Below, piece after piece: positions 13,463 to 48,626 of a DNA stretch of 64,000 nt. A program made the position numbers and the translations under genes. The notes beneath the pieces were generated by a model. The model saw only the letters and a program-made list of their open reading frames with translations. It made no database searches and was not told the origin of the DNA. The stretch is taken from NCBI GenBank assembly GCA_963821385.1, contig CAWGDK010000005.1:488907-552906 (forward strand), given 5' to 3'. The first letter of the stretch is position 1; every line of letters starts with the position of its first letter. The stretch is from an uncultured Gemmatimonadales bacterium. GTDB lineage: Bacteria; Gemmatimonadota; Gemmatimonadetes; Gemmatimonadales; GWC2-71-9.

Positions 13463-15399
13463 GCGGGCGTCGGCGTTCGCGCCGCGCCGAGCCGGCGACC
13501 GGCGAGGCCCTCGACTTCCTGCTGCGCCTCCGCGAGTCGATTCACGTCCTCGCCAATGAGGCGCGCGGCGTCCATCAGCGTCGTGAGCGGCGCGAGATCG
13601 GCGGCGCCCGCGTGCAGGCGGAGCAGGTCGAGACGGATGCCCTCGAGCGCGGCGACGCTCTCGGCGAGGTGCGCCGCCGCCGCTTTCGCGCCGCGCAGTC
13701 GAGCACCTCGGCGCCGCCCGACTCGGACGGCGCGAGCGCGGCGACCACCTCGATCTCCGCGCGCGCCTCGGCGGCGCGGGCCTCGAGCGCCGCGACGATC
13801 GCCGGCAGCTCGGCCAAGCTGCTCCCGGTACTCCTTCGGCAGCGCCGCGAACAGCTCCGCCGCGGCGACGCCGAGCGCTGCCTCGGTCGCGCGAAACGCG
13901 GACGCCCCCGCGAGCTGCGAGCGTTCCGGCGCGCCGAGCCGTCGGGCGAGCCACTCGCCCACGTCGGCTGTTCCAGAGGCGCTCGCGGATCCCCGTCTGC
14001 CACCACTTGCGGAGCTCGGCGGGAATGAACTGCACGTCGAGCGCGTTGCTCACCGCTCCGAGCACCATGGTGCTGAGCACCGGTGCGAGGATCAACACGA
14101 TGTCGCCGCGGTTCTCGTGGATGACATCCAGCAGGACCAGCAACGAGGGTGACCGCGAGCCAGGTCGCCGAGCCGACCGTGGCGACTCGCAGGATCCGGT
14201 GCGCGGTGGGCTCATCCTCATCGCGAACGACCGCCTCGGTCTCGGCCCGCTCGCGCCGCGCGATCTCGAGCGCCGCCCGCAGGTCGGCGAGGGTGTGTCC
14301 GGCGCGGAACTGCCGGCGCGCCTGGTTGAGGTGGAAACCGACGATCGGTACGAGCGGCAACGAGGCGATCGCGGCGAGGAGCACGATGTCTGCCGGCCCG
14401 TCGGGCCGCTTGCCGGTCAGCCAGCCGGCGAGGTTGCCCAGGGTCAGAGTACCGAACACTCCGGACCACGCCATGTACGGGACGAGGAGCGGATTCCGCG
14501 CGCCGAGCCAGGCGCGCAGCGTGGGCGGCAGCGCGGGCCGCGCGTCAGGCGCCGGGGCGAGCGCCTCCGCCAGCGCCTCGCCGTCGGCGAATCGGCCGGC
14601 GGGATCGCGCGCGAGGCACCGGTCGATCGCCGCGCCGAGCGCGGGCGGCAGCCCGGGCGCGGCGCGCATCACGCTCGGCGGCGCCTCGGTCGCCTGGCGC
14701 ACGAGCAGCGCGGGCAGGTTGGCCGACTCGAATGGCAGACGGCCGCTCACCGCGAGATAGCCGACCACGCCGAGCGCGTAGATGTCGCTGCGTCCGTCGA
14801 CGGCTCGCTCGCGGCCTGCTCGGGACTCATGAAGTGCGCGGTCCCCATGATCTTCCCCGGGTCGGTCGCGGACGCGGCGATCGCCGCCGCCGTGCGCGAT
14901 GCCGAAGTCGGTCACCAGCGCGCGGCCCGTGCCCGCCTCGAGCAGGATGTTGTCCGGCTTCACGTCGCGGTGCACGATGCCGCGTCCGTGCGCGTAGGCG
15001 AGCGCCCACGCCACCTCGCGCAGCACGCGCGTCGCGTCGGCCGGCGGGAGCGGACCGCGCGTGCGGAGTCGCTCGCCGAGCGTCTCGCCCTCCACGTAGC
15101 TCATGACGAAGAAGACGAAGCCGCCCGCTTCGCCGACGCGATGGATCGGGACGATGTGCGGGTGCGAGAGGCCGGCCGCCGTGCGGGCCTCGCGCACGAA
15201 CCGCTCGCGCGCCGCGGCGGTGCGGGCGAGGTGGGTCGGGCAGGACCTTGATGGCGACGTCGCGATCGAGCTGCACGTCGCGCGCGAGGTAGACCACCCC
15301 CATGCCGCCACGGCCGAGCTCGCGCTGGAGCGAGTACTCACCGGCCAGGGCGGCCTGCAGGTCGAGGAACTCGGCGGAGGGATGCGTCACACTATTCAC
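13459..15399 (-). pseudogene. Hanks-type Ser/Thr protein kinase with a membrane-anchored C-terminal region, at least 5 frame disruptions
   Basis: Pieces are in ORFs 14827..15681 (YSLQRELGRGGMGVVYLARDVQLDRDVAIKVL), 13575..15341 (HPHIVPIHRV, HRDVKPDNILL, TDFGIA, DGRSDIYALG), 12830..14221 and 13459..13962 (C-terminal coiled region). The activation-loop segment is out of frame. Confidence 0.8.
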
Positions 15400-37521: not shown

Positions 37522-40158
37522 CTATCGATTGGCCTCGTCCACGGCCTGCTTCATCCGGTCCACCCAGTGCGGCGCGACGCGGAGGTAGGCGGCTGGCTTG
37601 TCGATGGCACCCCGCAGGTAGATGACACCACCGCCGGGCGCGAGCGCGAACGAGGGTCCGTTGGTGTCTCGAAACTGCGGCGCGTCGGCCCACCGGCCCC
37701 GATTGCGGAGCGGCGGATTCGCCGTGGGATCGACGGTCACCCGCTCGAGCCGGGTCCGAGGTCCGTCCGTGATCGGCACACCCAACTCGCGCGCCGAGAG
37801 CCACTGAATGTCCTCCAGATTGCCGGCCGCCGCCTGGAACCGGCGCCCGTCGCGCGGGAGAGGCTCGATCCAGGCCTCCGTATAGGCGGCGTTGGTGTAC
37901 GCGATCCAGCGCCCGTCGGCGGAAGGAAAGGCGAACCCGGTGTTCGAAAACAGCGAGTCGACGGTGACCGGCCGGCGGTCGAGTCGCAGCACGTCTGCGG
38001 CGTTCGGCTCCCAGCGGATCCCGAAGACCCGGTCGTCAGGCATCCAGCGCAACGCCTCGAAGTGCGGGAGGTACAGCAGGAACTCCGGAGGGCCGGAGCG
38101 GTCCGGTGAGCCCACGAGGATCGAATCGTTGGCGCCGAACAGCAGCCGGTCGCCCGCCGGGCTCCATATCGCATGGGTGATGACCGGCCGCCGGATCCAG
38201 GTCTGGTATCGACCGGACGCCAGGTCGTAGATCCTGAGCTCCATCCCTTCGAGCCCCTCGACCACCGCAGCGAGGCGACGGCCGTCGGGGCTGTACTCGA
38301 AGGTGAGGAAGGCCTCTCTGCCGAGGTGGCAGCGTGTCGATTCCCGCCTCGCTGAGGTGAACCAGGTGCCCGACCGACCGGTTGTCCCCCTGGGCGTACA
38401 CCAGGGTACCGGACGGCGGCGATGGCATAACTCGCCGTCCCCGGTGAAATTGGCGAGGCCGAGTCCACTCGCCATCCGCACGGCCCGACCCACCCGACCG
38501 GTCTCGAGGTCCACCGGCGCCGCGAGCAGATCACCGCCGATGGAGACGTAGGTCAGATAGCGCCCGTCGACGACCCGGAACGACGAACCGAACACCCGAT
38601 TGCTGTCCTCCGCACGCCAGAACCGCTGCTCGAACGCGGTGTCCCCGACCGCGATCCGGTAGCCCCATTTGGCCCCTCCCCCGCCACAGAGCAGGCCGTC
38701 TCCTCCCGGAGTCAGCGCCTGGCCCTCGCAGTATCCGGATCGGGACCGACGAGACCGGTCCCGCGCTCGGGATCGATCCAGCGGGCCACTGGCCGCCGCT
38801 GTCGATGGCGAGGATCCGGCCTCCGGAGGGCCAGAGCAGCCTCCGCAGGACTCGACGCCGCGACCGATCGTGGTCGCGGTGCCGCCTTCGACGGGGATGA
38901 CCTCGACGGTCCACCCGCCGTCCGTCAGGCGGAAGAACGCGATGCCGGTTGCCGTCGGGCGAGATCGACCGGCTGGGATCCGTCATCGGTGCCGGGGATC
39001 CGCCGCACGGTGGCATCGAGCAGTGAGCGATACCAGAGCTCGCTCCGGCCCTGCCGCACCGTCTCGTACACGACGAAGTCGCCGCCGGGCGAGACGGCGA
39101 ACCCGACGTCCTGGGCGACCGTCATCATGCCGGCCGAGTCGGGGAGGCCGACGTCGTACTCCACGGGAACACCCGCGCGCTCGGACCGGGCGAGCATCGA
39201 CGCCAGCAGGGCGCCGACGGCGATCCCCGCCGCGCCCGTGGCGGCGATCCGGAGATCACGCCACCAGGGGCGCCTGGAGCCCTGGGCCGCCGTTGTTCCG
39301 GTTGAGGTCGCCGCGACAAACGCCGGATTCGCGAGCGCGTCGGCGAACGCCTTCGCGCGCGTCGAACCGGTCGGCCGGGAGCTTCTCCAGCGCCTTCGCC
39401 AGCGCCGCCGCCACGTTCGGCGGCACGCTCTTCCGCAGGCTCGTCACCGGCGCCGCCGGCTCGGCGATGATCTTCATGATGATCTGCTGCGCCGAGCCAC
39501 CCGTGTGCGGCGGCTGCCCGGCCAGCATCTCGTACAGCACGCTCGCCAGCGAGTAGATGTCGCTGCGCGCCGTGATCTCCTTGTCCGCCGTCGCCTGCTC
39601 CGGGACATGTAGTGCGGCGTGCCCAGACAGAGCCCGGTCTCGGTCATGCGTCCGCCAGCCGCGGCGGACACGGCGAGCGCGATGCCGAAGTCCATCACCA
39701 TCGGCCGGCCATCGTGCAGCAGGATGTTCTCCGGCTTGATGTCGCGGTGGATCACGCCGTGGCGATGGGCGTAGTCGAGCGCGTCGGCGACCTCGGTGGT
39801 GATCCGTACCGCTTCGTCGATGCGCGAACTGGGTCTCGCGAGTGAGCTTCTCGCGGATCGTCTCGCCCTCGATGTAGGGCATGACGTAGTAGAGGAACCC
39901 GCCGGCCTCGCCGGAGTCGAACAGCGGCAGGATGTGCGGATGGCTGAGCGCCGCGGTGGTCTTGATCTCCTGGACGAACCGCTCGGCGCCGAGCACGGCG
40001 GCGAGCTCGGGCTTCAAGACCTTGATGGCGACCTTGCGGTCGTGCTTCAGGTCCTGGGCGAGGTAGACGGTGGCCATGCCGCCCCGGCCGAGCTCGCGCT
40101 CGAGGCGGTAGCGGTCGGACAACGCGGCGGCTAGACGCTCCATTCCATCGATCATCAT
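37522..40158 (-). pseudogene. Hanks-type Ser/Thr kinase fused (via a TM segment) to a TolB/PD40-like beta-propeller; at least 8 frame disruptions
   Basis: The kinase part is in ORF 39256..40158 (LGRGGMATVYLAQD, VAIKVL) and ORF 39474..39755 ([24 protein letters not shown]). The TM segment is IAATGAAGIAVGALLAS (my own translation). Propeller pieces are in ORFs 38925..39197, 38531..39016 and 37522..38595 (SPDGNR, YSPDGRRLA, WSPAGDRLLF, FPSADGRWIAY). Confidence 0.8.
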
Positions 40159-40160
40159 GA

Positions 40161-40511
40161 CTAGAACCCCCTGAGCGCGTCAGCCTCCGTGGCGAACACG
40201 GCGAGAATGGTCGAGAACCCGGAAATGTCGAACACCTCCCGGACCGTCTCGTTCAAGCCAAAGAGGCGCAGCGCCCCTCCCCCCGCCCCCGCCCGTCCCC
40301 CCAGCCGCTTGACCGTGCCGAGCAACACCCGCAACCCGGCACTGCTGATGTAGTCGAGCGCCGTCAGGTCCACCACGACCTTCCGCGCGCCACCCGAGAG
40401 AATCGCGTCGAGCGCCTGCTGCGCCTGGGGCGAGGTGTTGCTGTCGAGACTGCCGACAACGGCGACGAGCGTAACGTCATGGTGCGCGCGCGTGGTGATC
40501 TCCATGGCCAT
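40161..40511 (-). CDS. STAS-domain anti-sigma-factor antagonist (SpoIIAA/RsbV-like)
   Basis: ORF 40161..40511 (116 aa). Motifs: VVDLTALDYISSAGLRVLLGTVKR ... LRLFGLNETVREVFDISGF. Confidence 0.85.
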   Translation of the reverse strand: MAMEITTRAHHDVTLVAVVGSLDSNTSPQAQQALDAILSGGARKVVVDLTALDYISSAGLRVLLGTVKRLGGRAGAGGGALRLFGLNETVREVFDISGFSTILAVFATEADALRGF

Positions 40512-41021
40512 CTACTCCTTCAGGCGCTTGACCAGCACGACGACGTTGTGACCGCCGCGGCGGTGATAGTGGACCTCGTCCATCAGCTGCCGCACCAGGT
40601 GAATCCCCAGACCACCGATCGGCCGCTCCTCGACGGAGCCCGCGGTGTCGGGGACCGCCGTGTCGAGGGGATTGAACGGCTGGCCGTCGTCCGTCAGGGT
40701 GACCGTCAGCCGATCCGGCAGTAGCTCGACGGCGATCGTCACCGCGCCGTCTTCGCCCTGCCGCCCCGCAAATCCGTGCACGATCGTGTTCTGCAGCAGC
40801 TCGTCGAGGGCGACGTTCAGGCTGCGCCGGACCGCGGCCGGCATGGCGTGCGCCTCCGCGAACGCGGTGAACGCCGCGTTGACCCGGGCGATTTCGCCCG
40901 GGTCGCTCGCCATCGTCCATCGGACGCCCAGCCGCGTCGGCCCGGCATTGCCGAGGGGGGAGCCGCGGTGCAGGTTCTCTTCCAACCTTTGACCCCTCTG
41001 AGTTGTACTTGAAAGAAACAC
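40512..41021 (-). CDS. anti-sigma regulatory factor / Ser-protein kinase (RsbW/SpoIIAB-like, GHKL ATPase); start uncertain (41021 GTG, 40985 TTG or 40917 ATG)
   Basis: ORF 40512..41021. Motifs: LDELLQNTIVHGF (N-box), LTDDGQPFNP (G1-like), GGLGIHLVRQLMDEV (G2-like). The stop abuts the STAS start. Confidence 0.8.
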   Translation of the reverse strand: MFLSSTTQRGQRLEENLHRGSPLGNAGPTRLGVRWTMASDPGEIARVNAAFTAFAEAHAMPAAVRRSLNVALDELLQNTIVHGFAGRQGEDGAVTIAVELLPDRLTVTLTDDGQPFNPLDTAVPDTAGSVEERPIGGLGIHLVRQLMDEVHYHRRGGHNVVVLVKRLKE

Positions 41022-41569
41022 CTCCGGCGACGGACGAACAGGACCGGGACCTGGTCCGGCAGTTCCTGGACGGTCACCGGGACGCGGGCGAGAGCCTCGT
41101 CGATCGGTACCAGAAACGGCTGTACAACCTCGCGCTCCGGATGACGCACGACGTGCAGGACGCCGAGGACGTCACGCAGACGGTGTTTCTCAATGCGTTT
41201 CTGAAACTCCGGACCTACGACCCGAGGTACAAATTCTTCAGCTGGATCTACCGCATGACGGTGAACGAGTCGCTCAACCTGCTCAAGCGACGCAAGCCGG
41301 CGGTGACGCTGGAGGATGGACCGGAAATCCCGGCCGCGGCCGCCTCTTCCGATCGCTCGACGGAGGCCGAGGACCGTGTGGGGAAGGCGCTGATGGGCCT
41401 GGAGCCGAACGATCGGGCCGTGGTGGTGCTCAAGCACTTTCTGTTTTTCTCCTACGAGGAGATCGCTGGCGTGCTGGAGATTCCGGTGAAGACCGTCAAG
41501 TCGCGCCTCTTCACGGCGCGGGAGCGGCTGCGGCTCGTGCTCACTGAACAGGTGCGGGGCCCATGCTGA
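41003..41569 (+). CDS. ECF-type sigma-70 family RNA polymerase sigma factor (start codon uncertain, no ATG; TTG at 41003/41009)
   Basis: ORF 41003..41569. Region 2 reads LVDRYQKRLYNLALRMTHDVQDAEDVTQTVFLNAF...FFSWIYRMTVNESLN. Region 4 reads VVVLKHFLFFSYEEIAGVLEIPVKTVKSRLFTARERL. Confidence 0.85.
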   Translation: MYLKETPPATDEQDRDLVRQFLDGHRDAGESLVDRYQKRLYNLALRMTHDVQDAEDVTQTVFLNAFLKLRTYDPRYKFFSWIYRMTVNESLNLLKRRKPAVTLEDGPEIPAAAASSDRSTEAEDRVGKALMGLEPNDRAVVVLKHFLFFSYEEIAGVLEIPVKTVKSRLFTARERLRLVLTEQVRGPC

Positions 41570-42765
41570 ACACGGAACAGATCGAGCTCATCCAGCAGGA
41601 GATCGACGGCGCCAACACGCCGGAACAGCGAGCCGCGTTCCGGTCGCTGGTGGAGCGGAATCCGGAGGCCCGGGCACTGGCGGACGAGTTGCGCTCCGTG
41701 GTACTGGCCTTCGATCGTACGGGGACGCGCGAACCGCCTCCTCGTCTGAAACACGCGATCCTTGCGACACTGCCTCCACCGGGGCACGCGCGAGCGACGT
41801 GGTGGGGCATACTGAGTGATCCCGTGCAGACGATTCAGGATGTTTGGCAGCGCAGCATACTTCCAGGAGGCCACATGACGAGGAAAGCGATCATCATCGG
41901 AGGCTCAGCAGCAGCGGCGGCGGTCGTGATCTTCGTCGCCGGCTTACTGACCGGTTTCCCACCGGTCTTCAACAAGGCGGGCACGATCGGCGGGATCGGC
42001 GGCGTCGAGCAGGCGTCGCGCTATCGGGGGCGCGCCATGACCGAAGCCGACGTGACGCTCCAGAATCCCGAGATCCAGGTGCTGTTTCAGAACGATCAGA
42101 TCCTGCGCCTGGTGCGGAGCGATGTGTTCCGGGAAGTGATGCAGAATGCGGCGTTCCGGAACTTGCAGGCCAACGCGGCCTATCGCGAGCTCATGGCCAA
42201 CGCCGGCTACCAGCAGATCCAGGCCAGCGCCGCCTATCAGCAGATCCAGGCCAACCCGGCCTATCGCGAGCTCATGGCCAGCGCCGGCTACCAGCAGATC
42301 CACGCCAGCGCGGAGTACCAGCAGCTCCAGGCCAACGCCGTGTTCCGCGACCTGCAGGCGCAGGGAGCGTTCGGGCACGTGCAGTCCGCGGACGTCGCGC
42401 AGCGGCTCCAGGCCAACGCGGCGTACCGGGAGATCCAGGCCAACGCCGCGTATCTGCGGCTCCAGGCCAACCCGGCGTTCCGCGAGCTCCAGGCCAACGC
42501 CGTGTTCCAACAGCTGGCGGCGAACCCGGCGTACCAGCAGCTCCAGGCCAACGCCGCCTACCAGCAGCTCCAGGCCAACACGGCGTTCCGCGGGGTCCAG
42601 GCGAACGCGGTGTTTATGCGGCTCCAGGCCAGCGACGCGTTCCGCACGGTGCAAGCCAGCGGCGCGTTCTACCAGCTCCAGGCGGCCGAAGCGTTCCGCG
42701 CCCTGTCCCTGAACGCGGCGCTGTCCCAGACGTTCATGCGTGAGGCGATGCGCGACGCGAACTGA
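41563..42765 (+). CDS. single-pass anti-sigma-factor-like protein whose extracytoplasmic domain is 25 tandem nonapeptide repeats
   Basis: ORF 41563..42765 (400 aa). It overlaps the sigma stop by 7 nt. The N-terminal ~60 aa are helical and anti-sigma-like. The TM segment is AIIIGGSAAAAAVVIFVAGLL. The repeats follow the pattern QANAAYxxL. Confidence 0.65.
   Translation: MLNTEQIELIQQEIDGANTPEQRAAFRSLVERNPEARALADELRSVVLAFDRTGTREPPPRLKHAILATLPPPGHARATWWGILSDPVQTIQDVWQRSILPGGHMTRKAIIIGGSAAAAAVVIFVAGLLTGFPPVFNKAGTIGGIGGVEQASRYRGRAMTEADVTLQNPEIQVLFQNDQILRLVRSDVFREVMQNAAFRNLQANAAYRELMANAGYQQIQASAAYQQIQANPAYRELMASAGYQQIHASAEYQQLQANAVFRDLQAQGAFGHVQSADVAQRLQANAAYREIQANAAYLRLQANPAFRELQANAVFQQLAANPAYQQLQANAAYQQLQANTAFRGVQANAVFMRLQASDAFRTVQASGAFYQLQAAEAFRALSLNAALSQTFMREAMRDAN
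42058..42732 (+). repeat. 27-bp (9-codon) tandem coding repeat, ~25 units, with an embedded 81-bp higher-order duplication (~42179-42340)
   Basis: The units read LQNPEIQVL FQNDQILRL VRSDVFREV MQNAAFRNL QANAAYREL MANAGYQQI QASAAYQQI QANPAYREL ... QAAEAFRAL SLNAALSQT. The region is stop-free in several frames on both strands (ORFs 41844..42743, 42146..42712, 41944..42654). Confidence 0.85.
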
Positions 42766-42870
42766 CGCCCTCTCGTAGCGATCGTAGACCCGTGCGGTGA
42801 TCCTGGCTCGCTCTAACGGGAGCCGGGATCACCGCATAGCTTTGCTCCGCACCACCCTTCCCCTCGGACA

Positions 42871-45825
42871 ATGCCGCGACTGCGATACCTGGCCTTCCTC
42901 GTGTCCCTGGGGATGAGCGTGCCCGCCGCTCTCGCGGCGCAGTTTCAGACGCTCCAAACCGGCGACATGCGCCTGGTGTTGACCTCTCCGCTGCAGTCCT
43001 ATCTGGTGCCCCAGGTGGTCGGCAGCTTCGAGAACGCGCTGCAGTTTCACCGCCGCCTGTTCGACTACTCGCCGCGGGGCAAGATCGACCTGCTGCTGCA
43101 CGACCTGTGGCACTACGGCAACGCGGGCGCGAGCCCGCTGCCGCAGAACCACGTCACCGTCGGGATCGAGCCGTACGGCCACGACTACGAATCCGCGCCG
43201 GCCCAGGAACGGATGACCTCCTCGCTCAACCACGAGCTGGCCCACATCGTGACGACCGACAAGGCCACGGCGTCCGACCGGTTCTTCCGGTCGCTGTTCT
43301 TCGGCAAGGTCACGCCCACCGCGGACGCCCCGCTGTCGATGCTGTACGGCTACCTGACCGTGCCGCGCTGGTATGCGCCGCGCTGGTACCTGGAGGGGAT
43401 CGCCGTCTATCTCGAGACGTGGATGAACGGCGGGCGTGGGACGCGCGATCGGCCCCTACGACGAGATGGTGTTTCGCACCCTCGTCCGTGACAGCGGCCG
43501 CGTCTACGACGTCGTCGGGCTCGAATCCGAAGGGACGACGATCGACTTCCAGGTCGGGAGCAACTCCTATCTCTACGGGACGCGGTTCGTCAGCTATCTG
43601 GCGCTGCGCTACGGCGACGACAGCCTGCTGGCGTGGTTCAACCGCAGCGCGGGGAGCCGGCGCTACTTCTCATCGCAGTTTCGCCACGTGTTCGGCCGCT
43701 CGCTCGAGGACGAATGGTCGCGCTGGATCGCGTGGGAGCGTGCGTGGCAGGACACCAATCTCGCGAGCGATTCGGCGGCACCCGACCACCGCCTCCCGCC
43801 CGCTCTCGGATCGGACGCTGGGTGCCGTCTCCCGGGCGTACTACGACTCGGCGAGCCACAGCCTGGTCCTGGCCGTTCGCTATCCGGGACAGGTCGGCCA
43901 TCTGGTCACGCATCGACCTCGCATCCGGCAGGCTCAAGAACCTGCGGGAGGTGCACGGGAGCGTCCGGACCTGTCGGTCACCTCGCTGGCGTTCGATCCG
44001 GCGTCCCGGACGCTGTTCTATACGACCAACAACGCCAATTGGCGCCACCTCGTCTCGCTGAACCTGGCGACCGGCCACTCCGCGACGCTCATTCGCGACG
44101 CGCGGATCGGCGATCTCGCGTTCAACGCGCGGGACAGCTCGCTGTGGGGCGTCCGCCATGACAACGGGTTCTCGACGCTGGTCCGCATTCCGCCCCCGTA
44201 CCACGAGTGGCACCAGGTCCGCACCCTGCCCTACGGACGGGACCTGTTCGACCTCGACATCGCGCCGGACGGATCGACCCTCATCGGTTCGATGTCGGAT
44301 CTCAGCGGCAGCGAGCGGCTGGTCAGGATGGACCTCGCGGCGCTTCCGGCGGACTCCGCCACGCTCGAAGACCTGTTCGACTTCGGGAATTGGTCGCCGT
44401 CGAACTTCGTGTTCTCGCCGGACGGGCGGTTCCTCTACGGCTCCTCCTACTACTCGGGCGTATCCAACATCTTCCGCTACGACTTCACCACGAGCGAGAT
44501 GGAGCCCCTGAGCAACGCGGAGACGGGCTTCTTCAAGCCGGTCCCCCTGGCTGGGCGGCCGGACTCCCTCGTCGTCTTCCGCTATTCGGCCCGAGGATTC
44601 GTGCCCTCGCTGATCGCGAACCAGGTGGTGGACTCGGTCAGCGCGATTCGCTTCCTGGGCAACGAGATTGCCGCGAGCCGGCCCGAGGTGCAGTCGTGGA
44701 TGGTGCCGCCCATCGTCGCCGACTCCACCACGCCCTCGAGCGGCGCCTATCGCCCGCTGCGGACAGATCAAGCTGGACAACGCGTACCCGATCGTGGAGG
44801 GATACCAGGATGCGGACGGCGGCTCCACGGTGGCGGGCGGGCTGCGCCTGAACTTCTCCGATCGCGTCGGGACGACGGCGCTCGACCTGAGCGCGTCCTA
44901 CTCGGGCGGGGCCCTGGCGAAGTCGGAGCGTCTCCACCTGCGCGCGAATTTCCACTACTGGAACTGGCGCGTCGCCGCGGCCCTCAATCCCGCCGACTTC
45001 TACGATCTCGTCGGGCCCACGAAGACGAGTCGCAAAGGCTACTCGCTGACGCTCGAGCGTCAGGGCATGCTCCTGTTCGACGAGCCGAGGCGGCTGACGT
45101 ACTCGCTCCAGGTGGCGGGCTACGGCGACCTGGCGACCCTGCCCGAGTTCCAGGGCGTGCTGGCTCCATTCGACAAGCTGCTGTCGTTCTCCGGCGACCT
45201 CGCCTACACCTCGCTGCGACGCTCACTCGGCGCCGTGGACGACGAGCTGGGGACGACGTGGGGCGTCGGCCTGCGCGGCAACGCCGTGAGCGGGACCGTG
45301 TTTCCCCGCGTGAGCCTCGAGGCGGCGAAAGGGTTCTTGCTCCCACTGGACCACTCGTCGCTGTGGTTCAGGGCCTCAGGCGGCGCGGCGCTGTCCGGCA
45401 ACCGGACCAACCCGTTCGCCAACTTCTTTTTCGGCGGGTTCGGCAACAACTGGGTGGACCACCGGGACATCCAGCAATTCCGGAACGTCGCGAGCTTCCC
45501 GGGTCTCGACATCAACAGCGTCGCGGGCGCCGACTACGCCCGGGCCCAGGTGGAGTGGGTATCGCCGCCGCTGCGGTTTCGCCGCGCCGGGATCCCCAGC
45601 TGCTACCTGCGCTGGGCCAACGTGTCGCTGTTCACGACGGGGCTCATGACCAACGTCCGGGACGCGTCGCTGCGACGCACGCTGCTGAGCGCGGGTGCGC
45701 AGCTCGACATCCGCTTGATCACGCTCTCCCATCTCGAGTCCACGCTGTCGACGGGGTTCGCCGTGGCCGGGGAACGGGGTGGCCCGCCTCATTCCACGTT
45801 CATGTTCTCGTTCAAGATCATGTGA
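42871..45825 (+). pseudogene. secreted multidomain protein: N-terminal HExxH metallopeptidase-like domain, PD40/TolB-like propeller, and a C-terminal predicted outer-membrane beta-barrel; about 5 frame disruptions
   Basis: ORFs 42871..43491 (signal peptide, SSLNHELAHIV), 43436..44161, 43107..46736 (middle part: LAFDPASRTLFYTT, DIAPDGSTLIG, FSPDGRFLYGSSY) and 44668..45825 (amphipathic beta-strand pattern, FGGFGNNW, ending TFMFSFKIM). Confidence 0.7.
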
Positions 45826-46833
45826 CGGCCGTCGTCGCGATTGCCGTCAGTGTCCTGCCGGTCTTCCTGTTCCTCGGCGCACTGGTCCTGATCGACAGCT
45901 ACAAACTCGTCGCGTTCCGGGCGATCCTGCTGTCGCTCACGGCCGGCCTGGTCGCCGGGCTCGCGAGCTACGCGGTGAACGTCAGCCTCCGGCCCGCGCT
46001 CGCCCTGGACCTGGCACCCTATTCCCGCTACGTCGCGCCCGTCGTGGAAGAGTCGTTCAAGGCCGCTTTCGTCGTCTTCCTGCTGCAGCGCAACCGGGTG
46101 GGGTTCGTCGTGGACGCCGCCATCCACGGATTCGCCATCGGCACCGGGTTCGCGGTGCTCGAGAATCTCTACTACGTCGAGGCGGCGGCGGGTGCCACGC
46201 TGTGGACCTGGATCGTGCGCGGGTTCGGCACCGCCGTCATGCACGGGGGCGCCACGGCCATCCTGGCGATGATCGCCAAGACGCTGCAGACCCGGGCCGG
46301 GACCTTCCGGCTCTCCCTCGTCCTGCCGGGTCTTGGGCTGGCCGTGGTGCTGCACTCGCTGTACAACCACGTCCTGGTGCAGCCGATCCTGGCGACGGCG
46401 CTCCTCGTCCTGGTGTTTCCCTGGCTCAGCATCGTGGTGTTCCAGCCGAGCGAACGGGAAACGAGCGCCTGGCTGGGGGCGGGATTCGACACCGACCAGG
46501 AGCTGCTGCAAGGCCGTGCACGCGGGGCGGATCTCGGCGACCCCGATGGGCAGCTATCTCAAGACCCTGCGCAGCCGCTTCGCCGCGGAGGTGATCGTGG
46601 ACATGATGTGCCTGCTGCGCCTGCGTGCCGAGCTCGCGATCCGCGCCAAGGGGGTCCTGATGTTGCGCGAGGCGGGGTTCGAGGCCGCGCCCGATCCAGC
46701 GGTGAAGGACAAGTTCCGAGAGCTGCGCTACCTTGAGAAAAGCATCGGGCGGACGGGGATGGTCGCCATCCACCCGTTCCTGCACACCAGCACGCGGGAC
46801 CTCTGGCAGCTCAACCTGCTCAACGAAACGTGA
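45822..46833 (+). pseudogene. prsW: PrsW-family intramembrane metalloprotease, one frame disruption near 46510
   Basis: The GTG at 45822 overlaps the upstream stop by 4 nt. Sequence comes from ORF 43107..46736 (VAPVVEESFKA, AIHGFAIGTGFAVLENL, TAVMHGGATA, HSLYNH) and then ORF 46333..46833 (C-terminal cytoplasmic tail). Confidence 0.8.
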
Positions 46834-46840
46834 TGCGCTA

Positions 46841-47185
46841 ATGGAAGCCTCGGTGGAACAGCGCGGTGGGGTATGCACCGTGCATATCGCCGGCAGCGTG
46901 GACGGACTCACCGCCGACAGTCTCCAGCAGGTCCTGGCGCGCGAGCTGGACGCGGGACACGCCAAGCTGATCGCCGACTTCGGTGCGGTGGACTACACCA
47001 GCAGTGCCGGTCTGCGCGTGCTGCTGGGCACGGTGAAGCGCGCCCGATCGGGCGGCGGGGACCTGCGGCTCGCGGGCCCCAACCCCGACGTCCGGAAGGT
47101 GCTCGAGCTGAGCGGGTTCACCGGCATCCTGAAAGTGTTCGAGACGGTGGACGACGCCGTCGCCAGTTTCGGCGGCCCGGGATGA
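46841..47185 (+). CDS. STAS-domain anti-sigma-factor antagonist (second copy)
   Basis: Within ORF 46733..47185, from the ATG at 46841. Motifs: IADFGAVDYTSSAGLRVLLGTVKRARSGGGDLRLAGPNPDVRKVLELSGF. Confidence 0.85.
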   Translation: MEASVEQRGGVCTVHIAGSVDGLTADSLQQVLARELDAGHAKLIADFGAVDYTSSAGLRVLLGTVKRARSGGGDLRLAGPNPDVRKVLELSGFTGILKVFETVDDAVASFGGPG

Positions 47186-48373
47186 GCGGCGCGCCGGCCC
47201 GGGTGCTGGTCGTGGAGGCGGCGGACGCGCCGGACCGCCTCAGCGGGCACGTGCAGCGCGAAGGGTACGGCGTGGACACGGCTGCCCAGACTGATGAGGC
47301 GCTCGCGAAGCTCCGGGCGGAGCGGTTCGACCTCGTGTTGCTGGACGCGGGCCGGGACGGCACGGGCTTGCTCGAGGCGCTGCGGAGCGACGCCGAGCTC
47401 GCGCCGGTTCCGGTGGTCGTCGTGTCGGCGGTGGAGGACGTCGACGTCGTCGCGCGCTGCCTCGAGCTGGGCGCCGACGACTATCTCCCGCGCCCCTTCC
47501 ATCCGGCGATGCTGCGGACGCGCCTGGGCGCCGCCTGGATCGCCGACGCGCTGCGGGCCGCCGAGAGTCTCACGCGCGAGATGGCCGTCGCCCGGAACAT
47601 CCAGCGGGATTTTCTTCCCGAGACACTCCCGATGGCGATGGGCGTGCAGCTCGATGCCGCGCTGCATCCGGCGCGCGAGGTGTCGGGCGACTTTTACGAC
47701 GCCTTCGTGCTGGCGCCCGGGAGTACCATCGTCCTGGTCATGGGAGACGTGTGCGACAAGGGTTTTGGCGCGGCGCTGTTCATGGCGCTGTTTCGCAGCC
47801 TCATCCGCGCGTCGGCCGACCCCGTCGGGGGCGGCGCGATCCAGATGATCGGCGGCCGTCGCACGCTCGTGCGCCAGTCGCTGGAATCCGCCTCGCCGGC
47901 CGACCTCTTGACGCGCGTCGCGGGATTCACCAACGACTACATCGCCAGACTGCACGGGCGTACCAACATGTTCGCGACGGTCTTCCTGGCGGCCCTCACG
48001 CCGCAGACCGGGCAGTTCGACTACCTGAACGCCGGTCACGAGCCGGCCATCGTGATGGGACGGGACGGCGCCACGCTGGAGCTGATGCCCACGGGCCCCG
48101 CGCTCGGACTCTTCCCCGAGGCGACGTTCCAGACGGGCGAGGGAACGCTCGGGCCCGGCGAGGCCCTGGTCGCGTTCACCGACGGACTGGTGGAGGCGCG
48201 GAACCCGGCCGGTGAGGCGTTCGGCACCGAGCGTCTTCAGGTCGCGCTGCGGGCGCACAACAGCTCGGCCGCCAATCTCGTCCGGGGCGTCATCGAGGCG
48301 CTCGCAGGGCTTCACCGGGCAGGCCGAGCCCCACGACGATGTGACGCTGCTCGTCGCGCGTTCGGTCGGGTGA
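47182..48373 (+). pseudogene. response-regulator receiver domain fused to a PP2C (SpoIIE-type) Ser phosphatase; frame disruption near 48300 restores the canonical C-terminus
   Basis: Within ORF 46873..48570, from the ATG at 47182 (ATGA overlap with the STAS stop). Receiver motifs: RVLVVEAAD..FDLVLLD..VVVVSA. PP2C motifs: SGDFYD, VMGDVCDKGFGAALFMA, DYLNAGHEP, FTDGLVEA. The alternate frame gives GQAEPHDDVTLLVARSVG* ending at 48373. Confidence 0.85.
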
Positions 48374-48383
48374 CCCTCGGCGC

Positions 48384-48530
48384 CACCAAGCCGACGGCGG
48401 CTGGCGCCGGTCCCGCGTCCACCAGCCGCTTGTGGACCGGCTCGACCCGGAAGTTCAGTCCTTCGAGCGTTCGCGAGCCGAGCAGGACGAGGTCTCCCGG
48501 TTCGCCGAACACCACATCATCTCCGGTTCG
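48384..48530 (-). pseudogene. diverged C-terminal fragment of a retropepsin-like aspartic protease
   Basis: ORF 48312..48752 contains DDVVFGEPGDLVLLGSRTLEGLNFRVEPVHKRLVDAGPAPAA. Compare DLVVFAETGDMTLLGAHSLEGLNLKIDPVRKELIPAGPVIAA in the gene at 58275..58652. Confidence 0.45.
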
Positions 48531-48626
48531 TCTTTCACGTTCTTTTCGGGCACCGTGTGTCCAGAATTGATGGTGGCGTTCGGGGCTCCGAGCGCCATGC
48601 TGGGACATGCCTTCGGATTCCGACGG

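What the first reader, a model, noticed from the sequence alone, without database searches (positions are those of the whole stretch)
42058..42732. 25 tandem nonapeptide repeats (consensus QANAAYxxL) forming the whole extracytoplasmic domain of the anti-sigma factor
From residue ~166 to ~390 the protein is a strictly 9-residue periodic array (…QANAAYREL MANAGYQQI QASAAYQQI QANPAYREL…). Position 6 is aromatic (Y/F) and position 9 aliphatic (L/I/V). The pattern is not the RTX GGxGxDxUx nonapeptide or the pentapeptide repeat, nor any repeat family I recognise. At DNA level it is a 27-bp repeat with an 81-bp higher-order duplication. It is therefore prone to expansion or contraction, and it leaves several frames on both strands open. 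As the sensory or cleavable domain of an anti-sigma factor next to PrsW, it could be the protease substrate or a ligand-binding solenoid.
Basis: seen in the sequence. Interest (0 to 1): 0.65.

Follow-up and report, generated by a model that had tools for sequence, protein, structure and literature searches.

The report
Nonapeptide helix array on anti-sigma factor
The periplasmic part of this Gemmatimonadota anti-sigma factor is a real array of 25 nine-residue units, each predicted to form one short helix; it belongs to an undescribed bacterial repeat module that always sits with a PrsW protease and a large HExxH protein, and its unit resembles the "DP" motif of eukaryotic STI1/HOP co-chaperones.

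Summary
Residues 166-390 of the 400-aa ORF 41563-42765 (+) are 25 nonapeptides in perfect register (lag-9 identity 0.43 against 0.11±0.02 in shuffles). An independently assembled MAG that is 90% identical has the same 25 units, so the array is not an assembly artefact. The family holds more than 100 proteins, almost all from Gemmatimonadales MAGs and all unannotated. Array length is nearly always an exact multiple of 9 residues, with 6-33 units. The family consensus is [M/Q]-A-[S/N]-[D/E]-A-[F/Y]-R-x-L. AlphaFold2 (pLDDT about 90, pTM 0.81) predicts one 7-8-residue amphipathic helix per unit, capped by Asn/Ser at position 3. Foldseek finds no analogue in the PDB. The repeat is not RTX, not a pentapeptide repeat and not a nonad α/β coiled coil. 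Proline-containing relatives do hit Pfam STI1-HOP_DP (15 of 53), so the unit is not entirely without precedent. The gene sits in a conserved cassette: ECF σ, anti-σ, a ~985-aa HExxH/β-propeller protein, then PrsW. In some relatives the repeat protein is a separate gene. The most likely function is a regulatory ectodomain that gates PrsW-initiated proteolysis; this is inferred, not shown. The array is not the whole ectodomain, PrsW lies two genes away, and the 81-bp repeat is one local duplication.

The parts
41003..41569 (+). ECF sigma factor gene. The start codon is uncertain: TTG at 41003, while homologues align from 41009 or 41141.
   Evidence: Pfam Sigma70_r2 7e-16 and Sigma70_r4_2 7e-13. 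Best NCBIfam matches are SigW models, 114 bits, below the cutoff. 54-83% identical orthologues lie upstream of the repeat gene in the related loci.
41563..42765 (+). Anti-sigma factor gene, 400 aa. Its ATG overlaps the sigma gene's 3' end by 7 nt.
   Evidence: ORF; 109 homologues; 71 species-level loci.
41563..41778 (+). Cytoplasmic anti-sigma domain, residues 1-72, four predicted helices. It has no H-x3-C-x2-C zinc motif.
   Evidence: AF2 pLDDT 96-98, helices 4-14, 20-32, 34-52 and 60-69. Foldseek 5wuq_C RsiW, probability 0.99, TMt 0.69. NF052375 E=4.9e-5. The sequence is read.
41887..41958 (+). Single transmembrane segment, about residues 109-132 (AIIIGGSAAAAAVVIFVAGLLTGF). Met105-Thr-Arg-Lys just before it corresponds to the start of the stand-alone repeat proteins of split loci.
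   Evidence: Sequence. L034 stand-alone protein starts 'MTRKTMILGG...'. T106 and K108 are nearly invariant.
41959..42057 (+). Conserved non-repeat juxtamembrane segment, residues 133-165 (PPvfnkAGTIGGiGGVEQAsRYRGRaMTeADVT). It is a candidate recognition or cleavage region; this is an inference.
   Evidence: Invariant G140, G143, V148, A151, R153 and D163. Lowest dN/dS in the gene, 0.17. The motif is kept in distant and in ASD-less relatives.
42058..42732 (+). The nonapeptide array: 25 units of 27 bp, residues 166-390.
42058..42165 (+). Units 1-4 (LQNPEIQVL FQNDQILRL VRSDVFREV MQNAAFRNL). This is the conserved, non-variable head of the array.
   Evidence: Invariant or nearly invariant N168, P169, Q176, N177, V184, S186, F189, M193 and F198.
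42166..42327 (+). The 81-bp tandem duplication: units 5-7 (42166-42246) and units 8-10 (42247-42327).
   Evidence: 90% identical over 81 bp, 52 of 54 in the first 54 bp. Also present in L005.
42355..42408 (+). Units 12-13 (QAQGAFGHV QSADVAQRL). This atypical landmark pair is predicted as the only break in the helix array and splits it into two blocks.
   Evidence: AF2 shows no helix at 267-275 in either model, and pLDDT dips to 64-80. A similar 'QAQGAFR..QSAEAMR' pair occurs in about a third of homologues.
42733..42765 (+). C-terminal tail (FMREAMRDAN) and stop codon.
   Evidence: Conserved 'LSxxFMxEAMR' ending in the family.
42871..45825 (+). Conserved ~985-aa secreted protein with a signal peptide, an invariant HExxH...E, a β-propeller-like middle region and a weakly Omp85-like C-terminus. 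In the window the gene is broken by three frameshifts (~43432, ~43766, ~44761).
   Evidence: tblastn pieces in three frames. The gene is intact at 985 aa in L005. H121, E122, H125 and E175 are invariant and E182 is ≥90% conserved in 19 sequences (all ≥95% in 58 sequences). PDB profile hit to a β-propeller, E=3e-4. Omp85_2 E=0.015. Present in all loci with enough flank.
45822..46824 (+). PrsW-family intramembrane protease gene, overlapping the preceding gene by 4 nt. In the window it carries one frameshift (~46508).
   Evidence: PF13367 E=4.6e-20. tblastn in two frames. Intact at 339 aa in L005. EExxK and HxxxN motifs are visible in the translation. Conserved synteny.
40161..41021 (-). Divergently transcribed STAS protein (40161-40511) and HATPase_c_2 kinase (40512-41021), an RsbV/RsbW-like partner-switching pair that accompanies the cassette.
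   Evidence: Pfam. The same pair lies next to the sigma gene in L001, L002, L003, L078 and L079.
46873..48570 (+). Response-regulator receiver plus SpoIIE/PP2C phosphatase gene, directly after PrsW.
   Evidence: Pfam SpoIIE 3e-36 and Response_reg 1.6e-14. Found at the same position in L001 and L002.

Best explanation
The 675-bp array encodes 25 in-register nonapeptides. Each unit most likely forms one short (7-8 residue) amphipathic α-helix. Asn/Ser at unit position 3 acts as the N-cap. Positions 5, 6, 9 and 1' (Ala, Phe/Tyr, Leu, Met/Gln) form the hydrophobic face. The helices pack into an elongated α-solenoid of two blocks, which makes up about 84% of the periplasmic part of a single-pass, zinc-less, RsiW-like anti-sigma factor.

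The array is the proline-poor Gemmatimonadales version of a wider, undescribed bacterial ectodomain: a conserved juxtamembrane 'GTIG..RY....DV.L' segment followed by a variable number of nonapeptides. In other lineages the unit reads [L/M]-A-[S/D/N]-P-x-[F/V/L]-x-x-A and resembles the first two helices of the eukaryotic STI1/HOP DP 'helical hand'.

This ectodomain is a module that always travels with a ~985-aa secreted HExxH/β-propeller protein and a PrsW intramembrane protease, next to an ECF sigma factor. In some relatives it is a separate membrane protein beside a conventional anti-sigma factor. In the window's clade it is fused to the anti-sigma domain.

The mechanism I commit to is as follows. 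The array is the regulatory ectodomain that keeps the anti-sigma factor resistant to site-1 cleavage by the co-encoded PrsW. A signal then exposes the conserved juxtamembrane segment. That signal could be occupancy of its hydrophobic surface, loss of contact with the 985-aa partner, or trimming by the partner's metallopeptidase domain. Regulated intramembrane proteolysis follows and the sigma factor is released.

Shown: the array, its periodicity, the family, the copy-number range, the conserved cassette, and the fused and split architectures. Predicted: one helix per unit and a rigid solenoid. Inferred: everything about signalling.
For: Array and periodicity.

Real, not an artefact: L005 has the same 25 units.

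Family:
- 109 homologues; 71 species genomes, almost all Gemmatimonadales; only 201 representatives among 1.84 billion proteins at E≤1e-3.
- Array length is an exact multiple of 9 residues in 66 of 68 proteins and 45 of 58 loci, with 6-33 units.
- Position-specific consensus from 716 units: A5 81%, F/Y6 92%, R7 83%, S/N3 85%.

One helix per unit:
- Two AF2 models (pLDDT 81 and 89; pTM 0.81 for the ectodomain alone) put unit positions 4-9 in helix in 24 of 25 units, position 1 of the next unit in 22-23 of 25, and position 3 in coil in 24 of 25.
- Pro occupies position 4 (helix N1) in 4 window units and in most units of relatives.
- Mean hydrophobic moment is 0.47 for the 7-residue unit helices but falls to 0.14 for a continuous 18-residue helix.

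Purifying selection: dN/dS is 0.49 in the array against L005. Very divergent relatives keep the 9-residue spacing with individually diverged units.

STI1-like unit:
- PF17830 is the most frequent Pfam hit among divergent relatives (15 of 53, best E=1e-14). Four of the relatives scanned individually score above the 29.1-bit gathering score.
- hhalign of their unit profile against verified HOP/Sti1 DP sequences gives 94.5% probability, P=8e-8.
- One such relative (P0216) sits in the same four-gene cassette.

Cassette: sigma, anti-sigma, 985-aa protein and PrsW occur in every locus with enough flank.

Split architecture.

Precedent: PrsW is the site-1 protease of RsiW in B. subtilis (PMC3498285). 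STI1 domains are amphipathic helical hands that bind hydrophobic helices (PMC8010706).
Against: - No experiment bears on structure or function.
- AlphaFold2 is known to give confident regular models for periodic sequences, and I could not inspect coordinates. 'Solenoid' rests only on the secondary-structure string and pTM.
- The window's own array has no Pfam STI1 hit at E≤1, and hhalign gives only 16.6% probability (P=0.0015, 19 columns).
- The Pfam hits of relatives never include a single domain passing on its own and cover only profile positions ~3-30 of 55. The unit profile A6 was selected for Pro at position 4. The STI1 resemblance may therefore be convergence on an N-cap-Pro short-helix motif.
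- Copy number from 6 to 33 units is hard to reconcile with a precisely shaped binding domain.
- In the window itself the 985-aa and PrsW genes are frameshifted. If those frameshifts are real, the proposed pathway is broken in this genome.
- In split loci a different anti-sigma factor is present, so the repeat protein need not be the PrsW substrate.
Confidence: 0.5

Rival explanations
1. The array forms a homotrimeric α/β coiled-coil fibre built from 'nonads', like Thermosinus Tcar0761 with its 14 MATKDDIAN units. Three residues of each unit would form a β-layer and six stay helical, giving a rigid periplasmic stalk.
For: Consecutive 9-residue repeats are exactly the periodicity that produces α/β coiled coils (Hartmann et al. 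2016, PMC4786415). The family unit begins M-A-[S/N], which is reminiscent of M-A-T. A monomer AF2 run cannot test trimerisation.
Against: The β-layer consensus [aliphatic]-A-T-K-[polar]-[DE] has 0 matches in the array, strict or relaxed. If M-A-S is aligned with β1-β3, the core 'a' position falls on the 83%-conserved Arg, and β1 is Gln in most window units. No flanking heptad coiled-coil segments are present. AF2 places 7-8 residues per unit in helix, not 6. Foldseek against the PDB, which should include the coiled-coil structures reported in that paper, returned no match.
Confidence: 0.07
2. The array is a low-specificity spacer or low-complexity linker, either loosely structured or disordered. 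It only sets the distance or reach between the inner membrane and the 985-aa partner, or acts as an entropic brush. The nine-residue register would reflect the mutational mechanism (unit-wise slippage) rather than a fold.
For: Unit number ranges from 6 to 33. It differs even between proteins whose N-terminal halves are 99-100% identical (12 vs 6, 17 vs 13, 21 vs 17). The composition is Ala/Gln/Asn-rich (A 23%, Q 17%). dN/dS is higher in the array (0.49) than in the anti-sigma domain (0.21).
Against: Conservation is strongly position-specific for an aromatic, an aliphatic, an Arg and a capping residue over 716 units. Distant relatives with individually diverged units keep the spacing. AF2 confidence is high. 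The head units 1-4 and the last units are nearly invariant.
Confidence: 0.15
3. The array is itself the proteolytic substrate or timer. The HExxH domain of the 985-aa protein, or PrsW, degrades it unit by unit, and the number of units sets the threshold or delay before the sigma factor is released.
For: Two proteases are co-encoded in every cassette. In B. subtilis, RsiW needs site-1 cleavage and then site-2 cleavage (PMC3498285); the intermediate trimming of the remaining ectodomain is from my own knowledge of the RsiW literature, not read here. Variable unit number would tune such a timer.
Against: There is no evidence that the HExxH protein is an active peptidase: it has no Pfam or PDB peptidase match. 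A confidently folded helical solenoid is a poor processive substrate. This reading overlaps the best explanation rather than excluding it.
Confidence: 0.12
4. The array, or its length, is an assembly artefact or a mis-called frame in a GC-rich region.
For: The window contains several single-base insertions that break neighbouring genes. Four other long ORFs overlap the array.
Against: The same 25 units occur in an independent assembly at 90% identity, with no indel between window positions 41545 and 42774. The frame is conserved in more than 170 homologues together with the N-terminal domain. dN/dS is below 1.
Confidence: 0.01

Closest known systems
STI1/HOP DP domains (Pfam PF17830; Sti1 DP2 PDB 2LLW; also the client-binding regions of ubiquilins and Sgt2/SGTA)
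   Same: Both are built of short amphipathic helices, each started by a D/N/S(-P) cap. The first two DP helices are spaced exactly 9 residues apart: MADPEVQQI MSDPAMRLI, compared with the family unit MASDAFRQL and window units LQNPEIQVL FQNDQILRL. Proline-bearing relatives from the same cassette hit PF17830 (15 of 53). Their unit profile aligns to DP domains at 94.5% probability.
   Different: A DP domain is a compact ~55-residue, five-helix cytosolic eukaryotic domain. Here there are 6-33 tandem units in a bacterial periplasmic ectodomain. Hits cover only profile positions ~3-30, and no single domain passes. The window's own array is not significant. Homology versus convergence is unresolved, and client binding is untested.
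Bacillus subtilis σW-RsiW-PrsW regulated intramembrane proteolysis
   Same: Both have an ECF sigma factor whose best NCBIfam matches are SigW models. Both have a single-pass anti-sigma factor whose N-terminal domain superposes on RsiW (5wuq). Both have a PrsW-family protease. PrsW is the site-1 protease of RsiW (PMC3498285).
   Different: This anti-sigma domain lacks the zinc motif, and the ectodomain is unrelated to that of RsiW. From my own knowledge, prsW is not linked to sigW in B. subtilis, whereas here it is co-encoded in a four-gene cassette with an extra ~985-aa HExxH/β-propeller protein and a partner-switching set (STAS, HATPase_c_2, PP2C). No cleavage has been shown.
Nonad α/β coiled coils (Tcar0761, OMP100; Hartmann et al. 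2016)
   Same: Long runs of consecutive 9-residue repeats in a prokaryotic protein, with helical segments interrupted once per unit.
   Different: The β-layer sequence motif is absent and the hydrophobic register does not fit. There are no flanking heptads, and no structural match appeared in the Foldseek PDB search.
RTX nonapeptide (GGxGxDxUx) and pentapeptide repeats
   Same: Only the unit length, in the case of RTX.
   Different: There is no Gly/Asp calcium-binding pattern, and the prediction is all-helical rather than a β-roll or β-helix.

Membership tests
Class I (RsiW-like) anti-sigma factor | N-terminal anti-sigma domain fold | tested here: met
   AF2 pLDDT 96-98 for four helices. Foldseek best hit is RsiW 5wuq_C, probability 0.99, TMt 0.69; the E-value of 1.8 is not significant for the whole-chain query. 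NCBIfam NF052375 E=4.9e-5, 23 bits against a cutoff of 100.
Class I (RsiW-like) anti-sigma factor | Gene directly downstream of, and co-transcribed with, an ECF sigma gene | tested here: met
   The ATG at 41563 overlaps the sigma ORF end at 41569. The same arrangement is found in the related loci.
Class I (RsiW-like) anti-sigma factor | Zinc-binding H-x3-C-x2-C motif (ZAS subclass) | tested here: not met
   No Cys, and no His in the right place, in residues 1-72 (sequence). No zf-HC2 Pfam hit. It is a non-zinc anti-sigma domain.
Class I (RsiW-like) anti-sigma factor | Binds and inhibits its sigma factor | not testable with these tools
   Needs a two-hybrid, pull-down or reporter assay.
STI1/HOP DP domain (PF17830) | Match to the Pfam model at or above the gathering score | tested here: not met
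   The window protein has no hit at E≤1. Relatives P0144 (39.6), P0216 (33.6), P0208 (30.8) and P0163 (30.6 bits) exceed the 29.1-bit sequence cutoff, but with no single domain passing.
STI1/HOP DP domain (PF17830) | Compact five-helix ~55-residue domain | tested here: not met
   25 consecutive helices are predicted. Pfam matches in relatives cover only profile positions ~3-30 of 55. Foldseek does not retrieve 2LLW.
STI1/HOP DP domain (PF17830) | Helix-starting D/N-P motifs with amphipathic helices, 9-residue spacing of helices 1-2 | tested here: inconclusive
   The cap residue at position 3 is N or S in 22 of 25 window units, but Pro follows in only 4 of 25. hhalign of window-clade profile A2 against DP alignment A4: probability 16.6%, P=0.0015. 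hhalign of Pro-type relatives A6 against A4: 94.5%, P=8e-8, from a selection biased toward Pro.
STI1/HOP DP domain (PF17830) | Hydrophobic groove that binds hydrophobic client helices | not testable with these tools
Needs binding assays.
Nonad α/β coiled coil (β-layer fibres) | β-layer motif [aliphatic]-A-T-K-[polar]-[DE] in register a-b-c-β1-β2-β3-e-f-g | tested here: not met
   0 strict and 0 relaxed matches in the array. The register would place the conserved Arg at core position a.
Nonad α/β coiled coil (β-layer fibres) | Parallel homotrimer | not testable with these tools
RTX nonapeptide repeat | GGxGxDxUx calcium-binding consensus | tested here: not met
   Units read QANAAYxxL with no Gly-Gly or Asp pattern. 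The prediction is all-helical.
PrsW-dependent RIP system | PrsW-family protease encoded with the sigma/anti-sigma pair | tested here: met
   PF13367 E=4.6e-20 for 45798-46736. PrsW is present in every related locus with enough flank. EExxK and HxxxN motifs are present (translation). In the window the gene carries a frameshift.
PrsW-dependent RIP system | PrsW cleaves the ectodomain of this anti-sigma factor; a site-2 protease follows | not testable with these tools
   Needs in vivo or in vitro proteolysis assays. I did not search for a site-2 protease gene.

The most novel reading that the evidence does not exclude
The nonapeptide array is a new protein fold class: a solenoid with one short α-helix per 9-residue unit and no solved analogue. 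It would be the periplasmic, tandemly expanded bacterial counterpart of the eukaryotic STI1 'helical hand'. Its extended hydrophobic surface would bind hydrophobic or unfolded envelope polypeptides, or membrane-active compounds. Together with a dedicated HExxH/β-propeller protein and PrsW it would form a previously unrecognised envelope-stress sensing cassette that gates an ECF sigma factor. Unit number would tune capacity or threshold.
Probability: 0.2. Interest if true: 0.8.

Novelty: new variant of a known kind. Interest (0 to 1): 0.6.

Why it matters
What triggers PrsW-type site-1 cleavage of anti-sigma factors is still unclear, even for B. subtilis σW. This cassette hard-wires PrsW to a specific sigma/anti-sigma pair, a defined repeat ectodomain and a large HExxH/β-propeller partner. 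It occurs in at least 71 species-level genomes, in both fused and split forms. That gives a compact genetic system in which the signal-sensing step could be dissected.

Structurally, the array is predicted with high confidence to be a one-helix-per-nonapeptide solenoid with no PDB analogue. If that is confirmed, it would add a repeat class and a natural series of 6-33-unit variants for protein design.

The resemblance to STI1/HOP DP motifs raises the question of whether 'helical hand' client-binding modules exist in the bacterial periplasm.

The family is unannotated in Pfam and NCBIfam, and every source that names a member calls it a hypothetical protein or gives an evident misannotation.

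Tried and rejected
- Pfam and NCBIfam scans of the window protein gave no repeat family. The only hits were a sub-threshold anti-sigma match and chance-level hits (DUF6175, E=0.42).
- Sequence and profile searches of the PDB gave nothing for the array. Ribosomal protein S3, RGS16 and DhaS appeared at E>0.1 and were rejected as chance.
- Foldseek against the PDB with the full-length and the ectodomain-only models gave nothing for the array (best TM 0.15). Bestrophin and designed helical repeats at E>2 were rejected.
- The nonad α/β coiled-coil reading was considered seriously and rejected on motif and register.
- RTX and pentapeptide repeats were rejected on sequence.
- An array-wide 81-bp higher-order periodicity was rejected by lag analysis.
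- The precomputed Pfam labels on homologues (Plasmodium_HRP, LemA, BACK_BPM_SPOP, PF26214) and JGI names such as 'phage head maturation protease' and 'lactoylglutathione lyase' are compositional or annotation noise.
- Long eukaryote-like or collagen-like hits in the representative search (for example P0134, GLQGNQGFV repeats) are compositional matches.
- Literature searches for a nonapeptide repeat plus anti-sigma, PrsW plus ECF plus Gemmatimonadetes, and STI1 plus anti-sigma found nothing relevant. The main text of the ECF reclassification paper mentions neither PrsW nor Gemmatimonadetes, and no supplements were held.
- The 985-aa neighbour could not be assigned to a peptidase family.
Full report
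**1. The observation**

The ORF at 41563..42765 (+) encodes a 400-aa protein. When residues 166-390 (nt 42058-42732) are printed nine at a time, they fall into 25 units with no insertion or deletion: LQNPEIQVL, FQNDQILRL, VRSDVFREV, MQNAAFRNL, QANAAYREL, MANAGYQQI ... QAAEAFRAL, SLNAALSQT.

- Residue identity at lag 9 is 0.43, and 0.42 and 0.40 at lags 18 and 27. It is about 0.1 at other lags. Shuffles give 0.112±0.02, with a maximum of 0.185 in 2000.
- Tandem Repeats Finder reports a 27-bp period with 19.7 copies and 67% matches.
- The 81-bp period scores best in TRF, but unit-by-unit comparison shows no array-wide three-unit periodicity. Mean DNA identity is 0.648 at lag 3, against 0.61-0.67 at all other lags.
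- What does exist is one local duplication: units 5-7 against units 8-10, 90% identical over 81 bp and 52 of 54 over the first two units.
- The longest exact direct repeat is 26 bp.
- Four further ORFs of 87-299 aa overlap the array in other frames. These are shadow frames; only the 41563 frame is conserved.

**2. Is it real?**

A scan of species-representative genomes found L005, a contig from a different Gemmatimonadota MAG assembled with megahit. It is 89.8% identical to window 40432-47427. Its orthologue is also 400 aa, with the same 25 units in the same order, including the three-unit duplication. There is no indel between window positions 41545 and 42774. The array and its length are therefore reproducible.

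Against L005, dN/dS is 0.49 in the array, 0.21 in the N-terminal domain and 0.17 in the juxtamembrane segment.

**3. The protein**

- The upstream ORF (41003-41569) is an ECF sigma factor. It matches Sigma70_r2 and r4_2, and its best NCBIfam matches are SigW models below their cutoffs.
- Residues 1-72 of the repeat protein are predicted as four helices at pLDDT 96-98.
- The best Foldseek PDB match of the whole model is the anti-sigma domain of RsiW in the SigW complex (5wuq_C, probability 0.99, TMt 0.69; the E-value of 1.8 is not significant for the whole-chain query).
- NCBIfam 'antisigma' NF052375 gives E=4.9e-5, below its cutoff.
- There is no H-x3-C-x2-C zinc motif.
- A hydrophobic segment at about residues 109-132 is the only transmembrane candidate.
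- The ectodomain has three parts: a non-repeat juxtamembrane segment (133-165, the most conserved ectodomain stretch, with G140, G143, V148, A151, R153 and D163 invariant), the array (166-390) and a 10-residue tail. The array is thus about 84% of the ectodomain, not the whole.

**4. The family**

- The 5.8-billion-protein search returned 109 homologues. All come from metagenomes or MAGs. Every one that carries a name is called a hypothetical protein or has an obvious misannotation.
- The species-genome scan returned 71 loci. Almost all are Gemmatimonadales or Gemmatimonadaceae MAGs, with outliers binned as Acidobacteria, Calditrichia and Ramlibacter.
- An exhaustive HMMER search of 1.84 billion cluster representatives with the ectodomain found only 201 proteins at E≤1e-3.
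- Between two conserved anchors the array length is an exact multiple of nine residues in 66 of 68 proteins and 45 of 58 loci. Unit number ranges from 6 to 33.
- Over 716 internal units the consensus is [M41/Q37]-[A60/S20]-[S43/N42]-[D38/E34/A13]-A81-[F58/Y34]-R83-[Q/E/A]-[L69/V13] (subscripts are percentages). The window's QANAAYxxL is a local flavour.
- Units 1-4 and the last units are nearly invariant. The variable units lie between them.
- About a third of members, including the window (units 12-13), carry an atypical 'QAQGAFR..QSAEAMR' pair in mid-array.
- Proteins whose first ~155 residues are 99-100% identical can differ in unit number: 12 vs 6, 17 vs 13, 21 vs 17. This supports expansion and contraction. 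Many of these sequences come from short-read assemblies, however, so collapse of near-identical units cannot be excluded.

**5. Predicted structure**

- AlphaFold2 was run with a 38-sequence alignment (mean pLDDT 81; above 90 over most of the array) and again on the ectodomain alone (pLDDT 89, pTM 0.81). Both give the same picture of one 7-8-residue helix per unit.
- Unit positions 4-9 are helical in 24 of 25 units, position 1 of the next unit in 22-23 of 25, and position 3 (Asn/Ser) is non-helical in 24 of 25. The only larger break is at unit 12.
- The sequence fits this model. Position 3 is a classical N-cap residue. Position 4 is Pro in four window units and in most units of many relatives. 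Positions 5, 6, 9 and 1' form an i, i+1, i+4, i+5 hydrophobic face.
- Mean hydrophobic moment is 0.47 for the unit helices but falls to 0.14 if the chain is treated as a continuous 18-residue helix, because 9×100° = 180° flips the face every unit.
- The high pTM suggests that the helices pack into a rigid solenoid. I could not see the coordinates, so the superhelical geometry is unknown. AlphaFold2 can also be over-confident on periodic sequences.

**6. Comparison with known nine-residue repeats**

- RTX (GGxGxDxUx) and pentapeptide repeats are excluded by sequence and by the helical prediction.
- The nonad α/β coiled coil was the most serious structural rival. In it, consecutive nine-residue repeats such as 14×MATKDDIAN form a trimeric fibre with β-layers (PMC4786415). 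The β-layer consensus [aliphatic]-A-T-K-[polar]-[DE] has no match in the array. Any register that aligns M-A-S with β1-β3 puts the conserved Arg in the core. No heptad segments flank the array.

**7. The STI1/HOP DP lead**

- The divergent relatives found include many whose units carry proline, for example LADPGVRLA, LASPAFQSA and LSSPELRQA.
- Scanning 53 such relatives against Pfam made PF17830 (STI1/HOP DP domain) by far the commonest hit: 15 members at E≤0.01, best 1.1e-14.
- P0144, P0216, P0208 and P0163 exceed the 29.1-bit sequence cutoff. No single domain passes on its own, however, and the matches cover only profile positions ~3-30 of 55.
- Human HOP DP2 reads MADPEVQQI-MSDPAMRLI. I wrote this from memory and then verified it as 7kw7_E residues 487-543, together with Sti1 DP2 2llw_A. 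These are two nonapeptides with the same cap, hydrophobic and spacing pattern.
- A profile of three-unit segments from the proline-type relatives aligns to a small DP alignment at 94.5% hhalign probability (P=8e-8, 20 columns). That profile was selected for Pro at position 4, so it is biased.
- The window-clade profile reaches only 16.6% (P=0.0015), and the window protein has no PF17830 hit at E≤1.
- The window-clade and proline-type arrays are linked in three ways: by hhalign (95.3%, with an odd alignment print-out), by the shared juxtamembrane segment, and by cassette orthology. P0216 lies between an ECF sigma gene and a 989-aa gene followed by PrsW.
- STI1 domains are flexible five-helix 'helical hands' with helix-breaking prolines and a hydrophobic groove that binds hydrophobic helices (PMC8010706).
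- I therefore treat the STI1 DP motif as the closest known relative of the unit, but not as a family this array belongs to. Convergence on an N-cap-Pro short-helix motif is not excluded.

**8. Genomic context**

- In L001, L002 and L003 (35-50% identical proteins), and in every one of the 71 loci with enough flank, the order is ECF sigma, repeat protein, a ~985-1004-aa protein with no Pfam domain, then a PrsW-family protease that typically overlaps it by 4 nt.
- The repeat protein is the least conserved member: 28-62% identity, against 54-83% for sigma, 60-86% for the large protein and 60-84% for PrsW within Gemmatimonadota, excluding L005.
- The large protein has a signal peptide. H121-E122-x-x-H125 and E175 are invariant, and E182 is ≥90% conserved. 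Its middle region matches β-propellers (PDB profile E=3e-4; PD40 E=0.01). Its C-terminus gives a weak Omp85_2 hit. A metallopeptidase role is plausible but unproven.
- A divergently transcribed STAS/HATPase_c_2 pair and a receiver-PP2C gene after PrsW flank the cassette in the window and in relatives.
- In the window PrsW is therefore two genes downstream (45822-~46824), not adjacent.

**9. Fused and split forms**

- In loci L078-L081, and also in L034 (Gemmatimonadaceae) and L074 (Calditrichaceae), the sigma gene is followed by a 252-270-aa anti-sigma factor with the homologous N-terminal domain, a transmembrane segment and a different, non-repeat ectodomain.
- After that comes a separate protein consisting only of a transmembrane segment, the juxtamembrane motif and nonapeptide repeats. 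The ~997-aa gene and PrsW follow.
- The stand-alone protein of L034 starts MTRKTMILGG..., which corresponds to Met105-Thr-Arg-Lys of the window protein.
- The repeat ectodomain is therefore a module tied to the large protein and PrsW. In the window's clade it has been fused to the anti-sigma domain. By Rosetta-stone logic, this suggests that the repeat protein and the anti-sigma factor interact functionally in the split systems.

**10. Mechanism**

The following is inference. PrsW is the site-1 protease that cleaves the ectodomain of RsiW and starts σW activation (PMC3498285). The cassette hard-wires a PrsW to this sigma/anti-sigma pair. I therefore propose that the helix array is the regulatory ectodomain that controls access of PrsW to the anti-sigma factor, probably at the invariant and poorly ordered juxtamembrane segment (pLDDT below 50 at residues 131-149).

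The signal could act in three ways: through the array's hydrophobic surface, as in STI1-like client binding; through its contact with the 985-aa partner; or through that partner's putative peptidase activity. The wide copy-number range argues for a scalable or multivalent function rather than a precisely shaped pocket.

Rivals are a trimeric α/β coiled-coil stalk, a largely unstructured spacer, and a processive substrate or timer. Their weights are given above.

**11. Caveats specific to the window**

Relative to L005, the window carries single-base insertions at 43432, 43766, 44761 and 46508. These break the 985-aa and PrsW reading frames. The Ser/Thr kinase at 39256-40158 is also frameshifted. 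L005 has both cassette genes intact. The insertions look like sequence errors, but real pseudogenisation is not excluded. The anti-sigma gene itself has none.

**12. Verdict**

- The system is a new variant of a known kind: an RsiW/PrsW-type anti-sigma system.
- Its ectodomain is an unannotated nonapeptide helix repeat without a solved analogue. The closest sequence precedent is the STI1/HOP DP motif.

Noticed in passing
window 42871-45825 and 45822-46830; also 39256-40158 (-): The conserved 985-aa gene is split over three frames and PrsW over two. The cause is single-base insertions at 43432, 43766, 44761 and 46508 relative to the 90%-identical contig L005, where both genes are intact. Three further insertions at 43908, 43953 and 43969 cancel out. 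The Ser/Thr kinase gene also has two frameshifts. These are sequencing or assembly errors, or pseudogenes.
   Followed up: partly
window 40161-41021 (-) and 46873-48570 (+): A STAS protein, an HATPase_c_2 (RsbW-like) kinase and a receiver-SpoIIE/PP2C phosphatase flank the cassette here and in relatives (L001, L002, L078, L079). The same sigma factor may therefore also be under partner-switching control. How this connects to the membrane anti-sigma factor is unknown.
   Followed up: partly
window 42871-45825; L005 2429-5386: The ~985-aa cassette protein has no Pfam or NCBIfam family. It has an invariant HExxH plus downstream Glu, a β-propeller-like middle region and a weakly Omp85-like C-terminus. 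It may be an uncharacterised envelope metallopeptidase family.
   Followed up: partly
window 41875-41886 (Met105-Thr-Arg-Lys); L034 ~6860-7660; L074 ~6930-7784; L078-L081: The repeat ectodomain occurs as a stand-alone membrane protein next to a conventional anti-sigma factor in some genomes, and is fused to the anti-sigma domain in the window's clade. The internal Met105 of the window protein matches the start of the stand-alone form.
   Followed up: yes
window 42058-42732 against L005 1616-2290: Synonymous divergence in the array (dS 0.08) is four times lower than in the anti-sigma domain of the same gene (dS 0.32). Possible causes are codon bias, constraint at the DNA or RNA level, or gene conversion. 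This remains unexplained.
   Followed up: no
L070 6001-6880 (MAG binned as Acidobacteria); L075 (Calditrichia): The cassette orthologues outside Gemmatimonadota carry very different, near-perfect nonapeptide arrays: about 25 copies of ANPNFQSVL in L070 and LDNAxxRAA-type units in L075. This indicates independent recent expansions of lineage-specific units.
   Followed up: partly
homologues P0033/P0088, P0011/P0032, P0005/P0009: Proteins with 99-100% identical N-terminal halves differ by 4-6 units. This is either strain-level copy-number variation or collapse of near-identical units in short-read assemblies.
   Followed up: partly
window 10906-11829 (-) and 14586-15360 (-): Two further Ser/Thr protein kinase paralogues were detected by tblastn with a kinase from a related locus. 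The second also appears split over two frames.
   Followed up: no
relatives P0124, P0145, P0132, P0143: There are recurrent sub-threshold hits to NCBIfam NF047558 ('TPR end-of-group domain', up to 30.3 bits against a cutoff of 32) and to GerD and BACK helical domains. This may be another short-helix motif resemblance.
   Followed up: no
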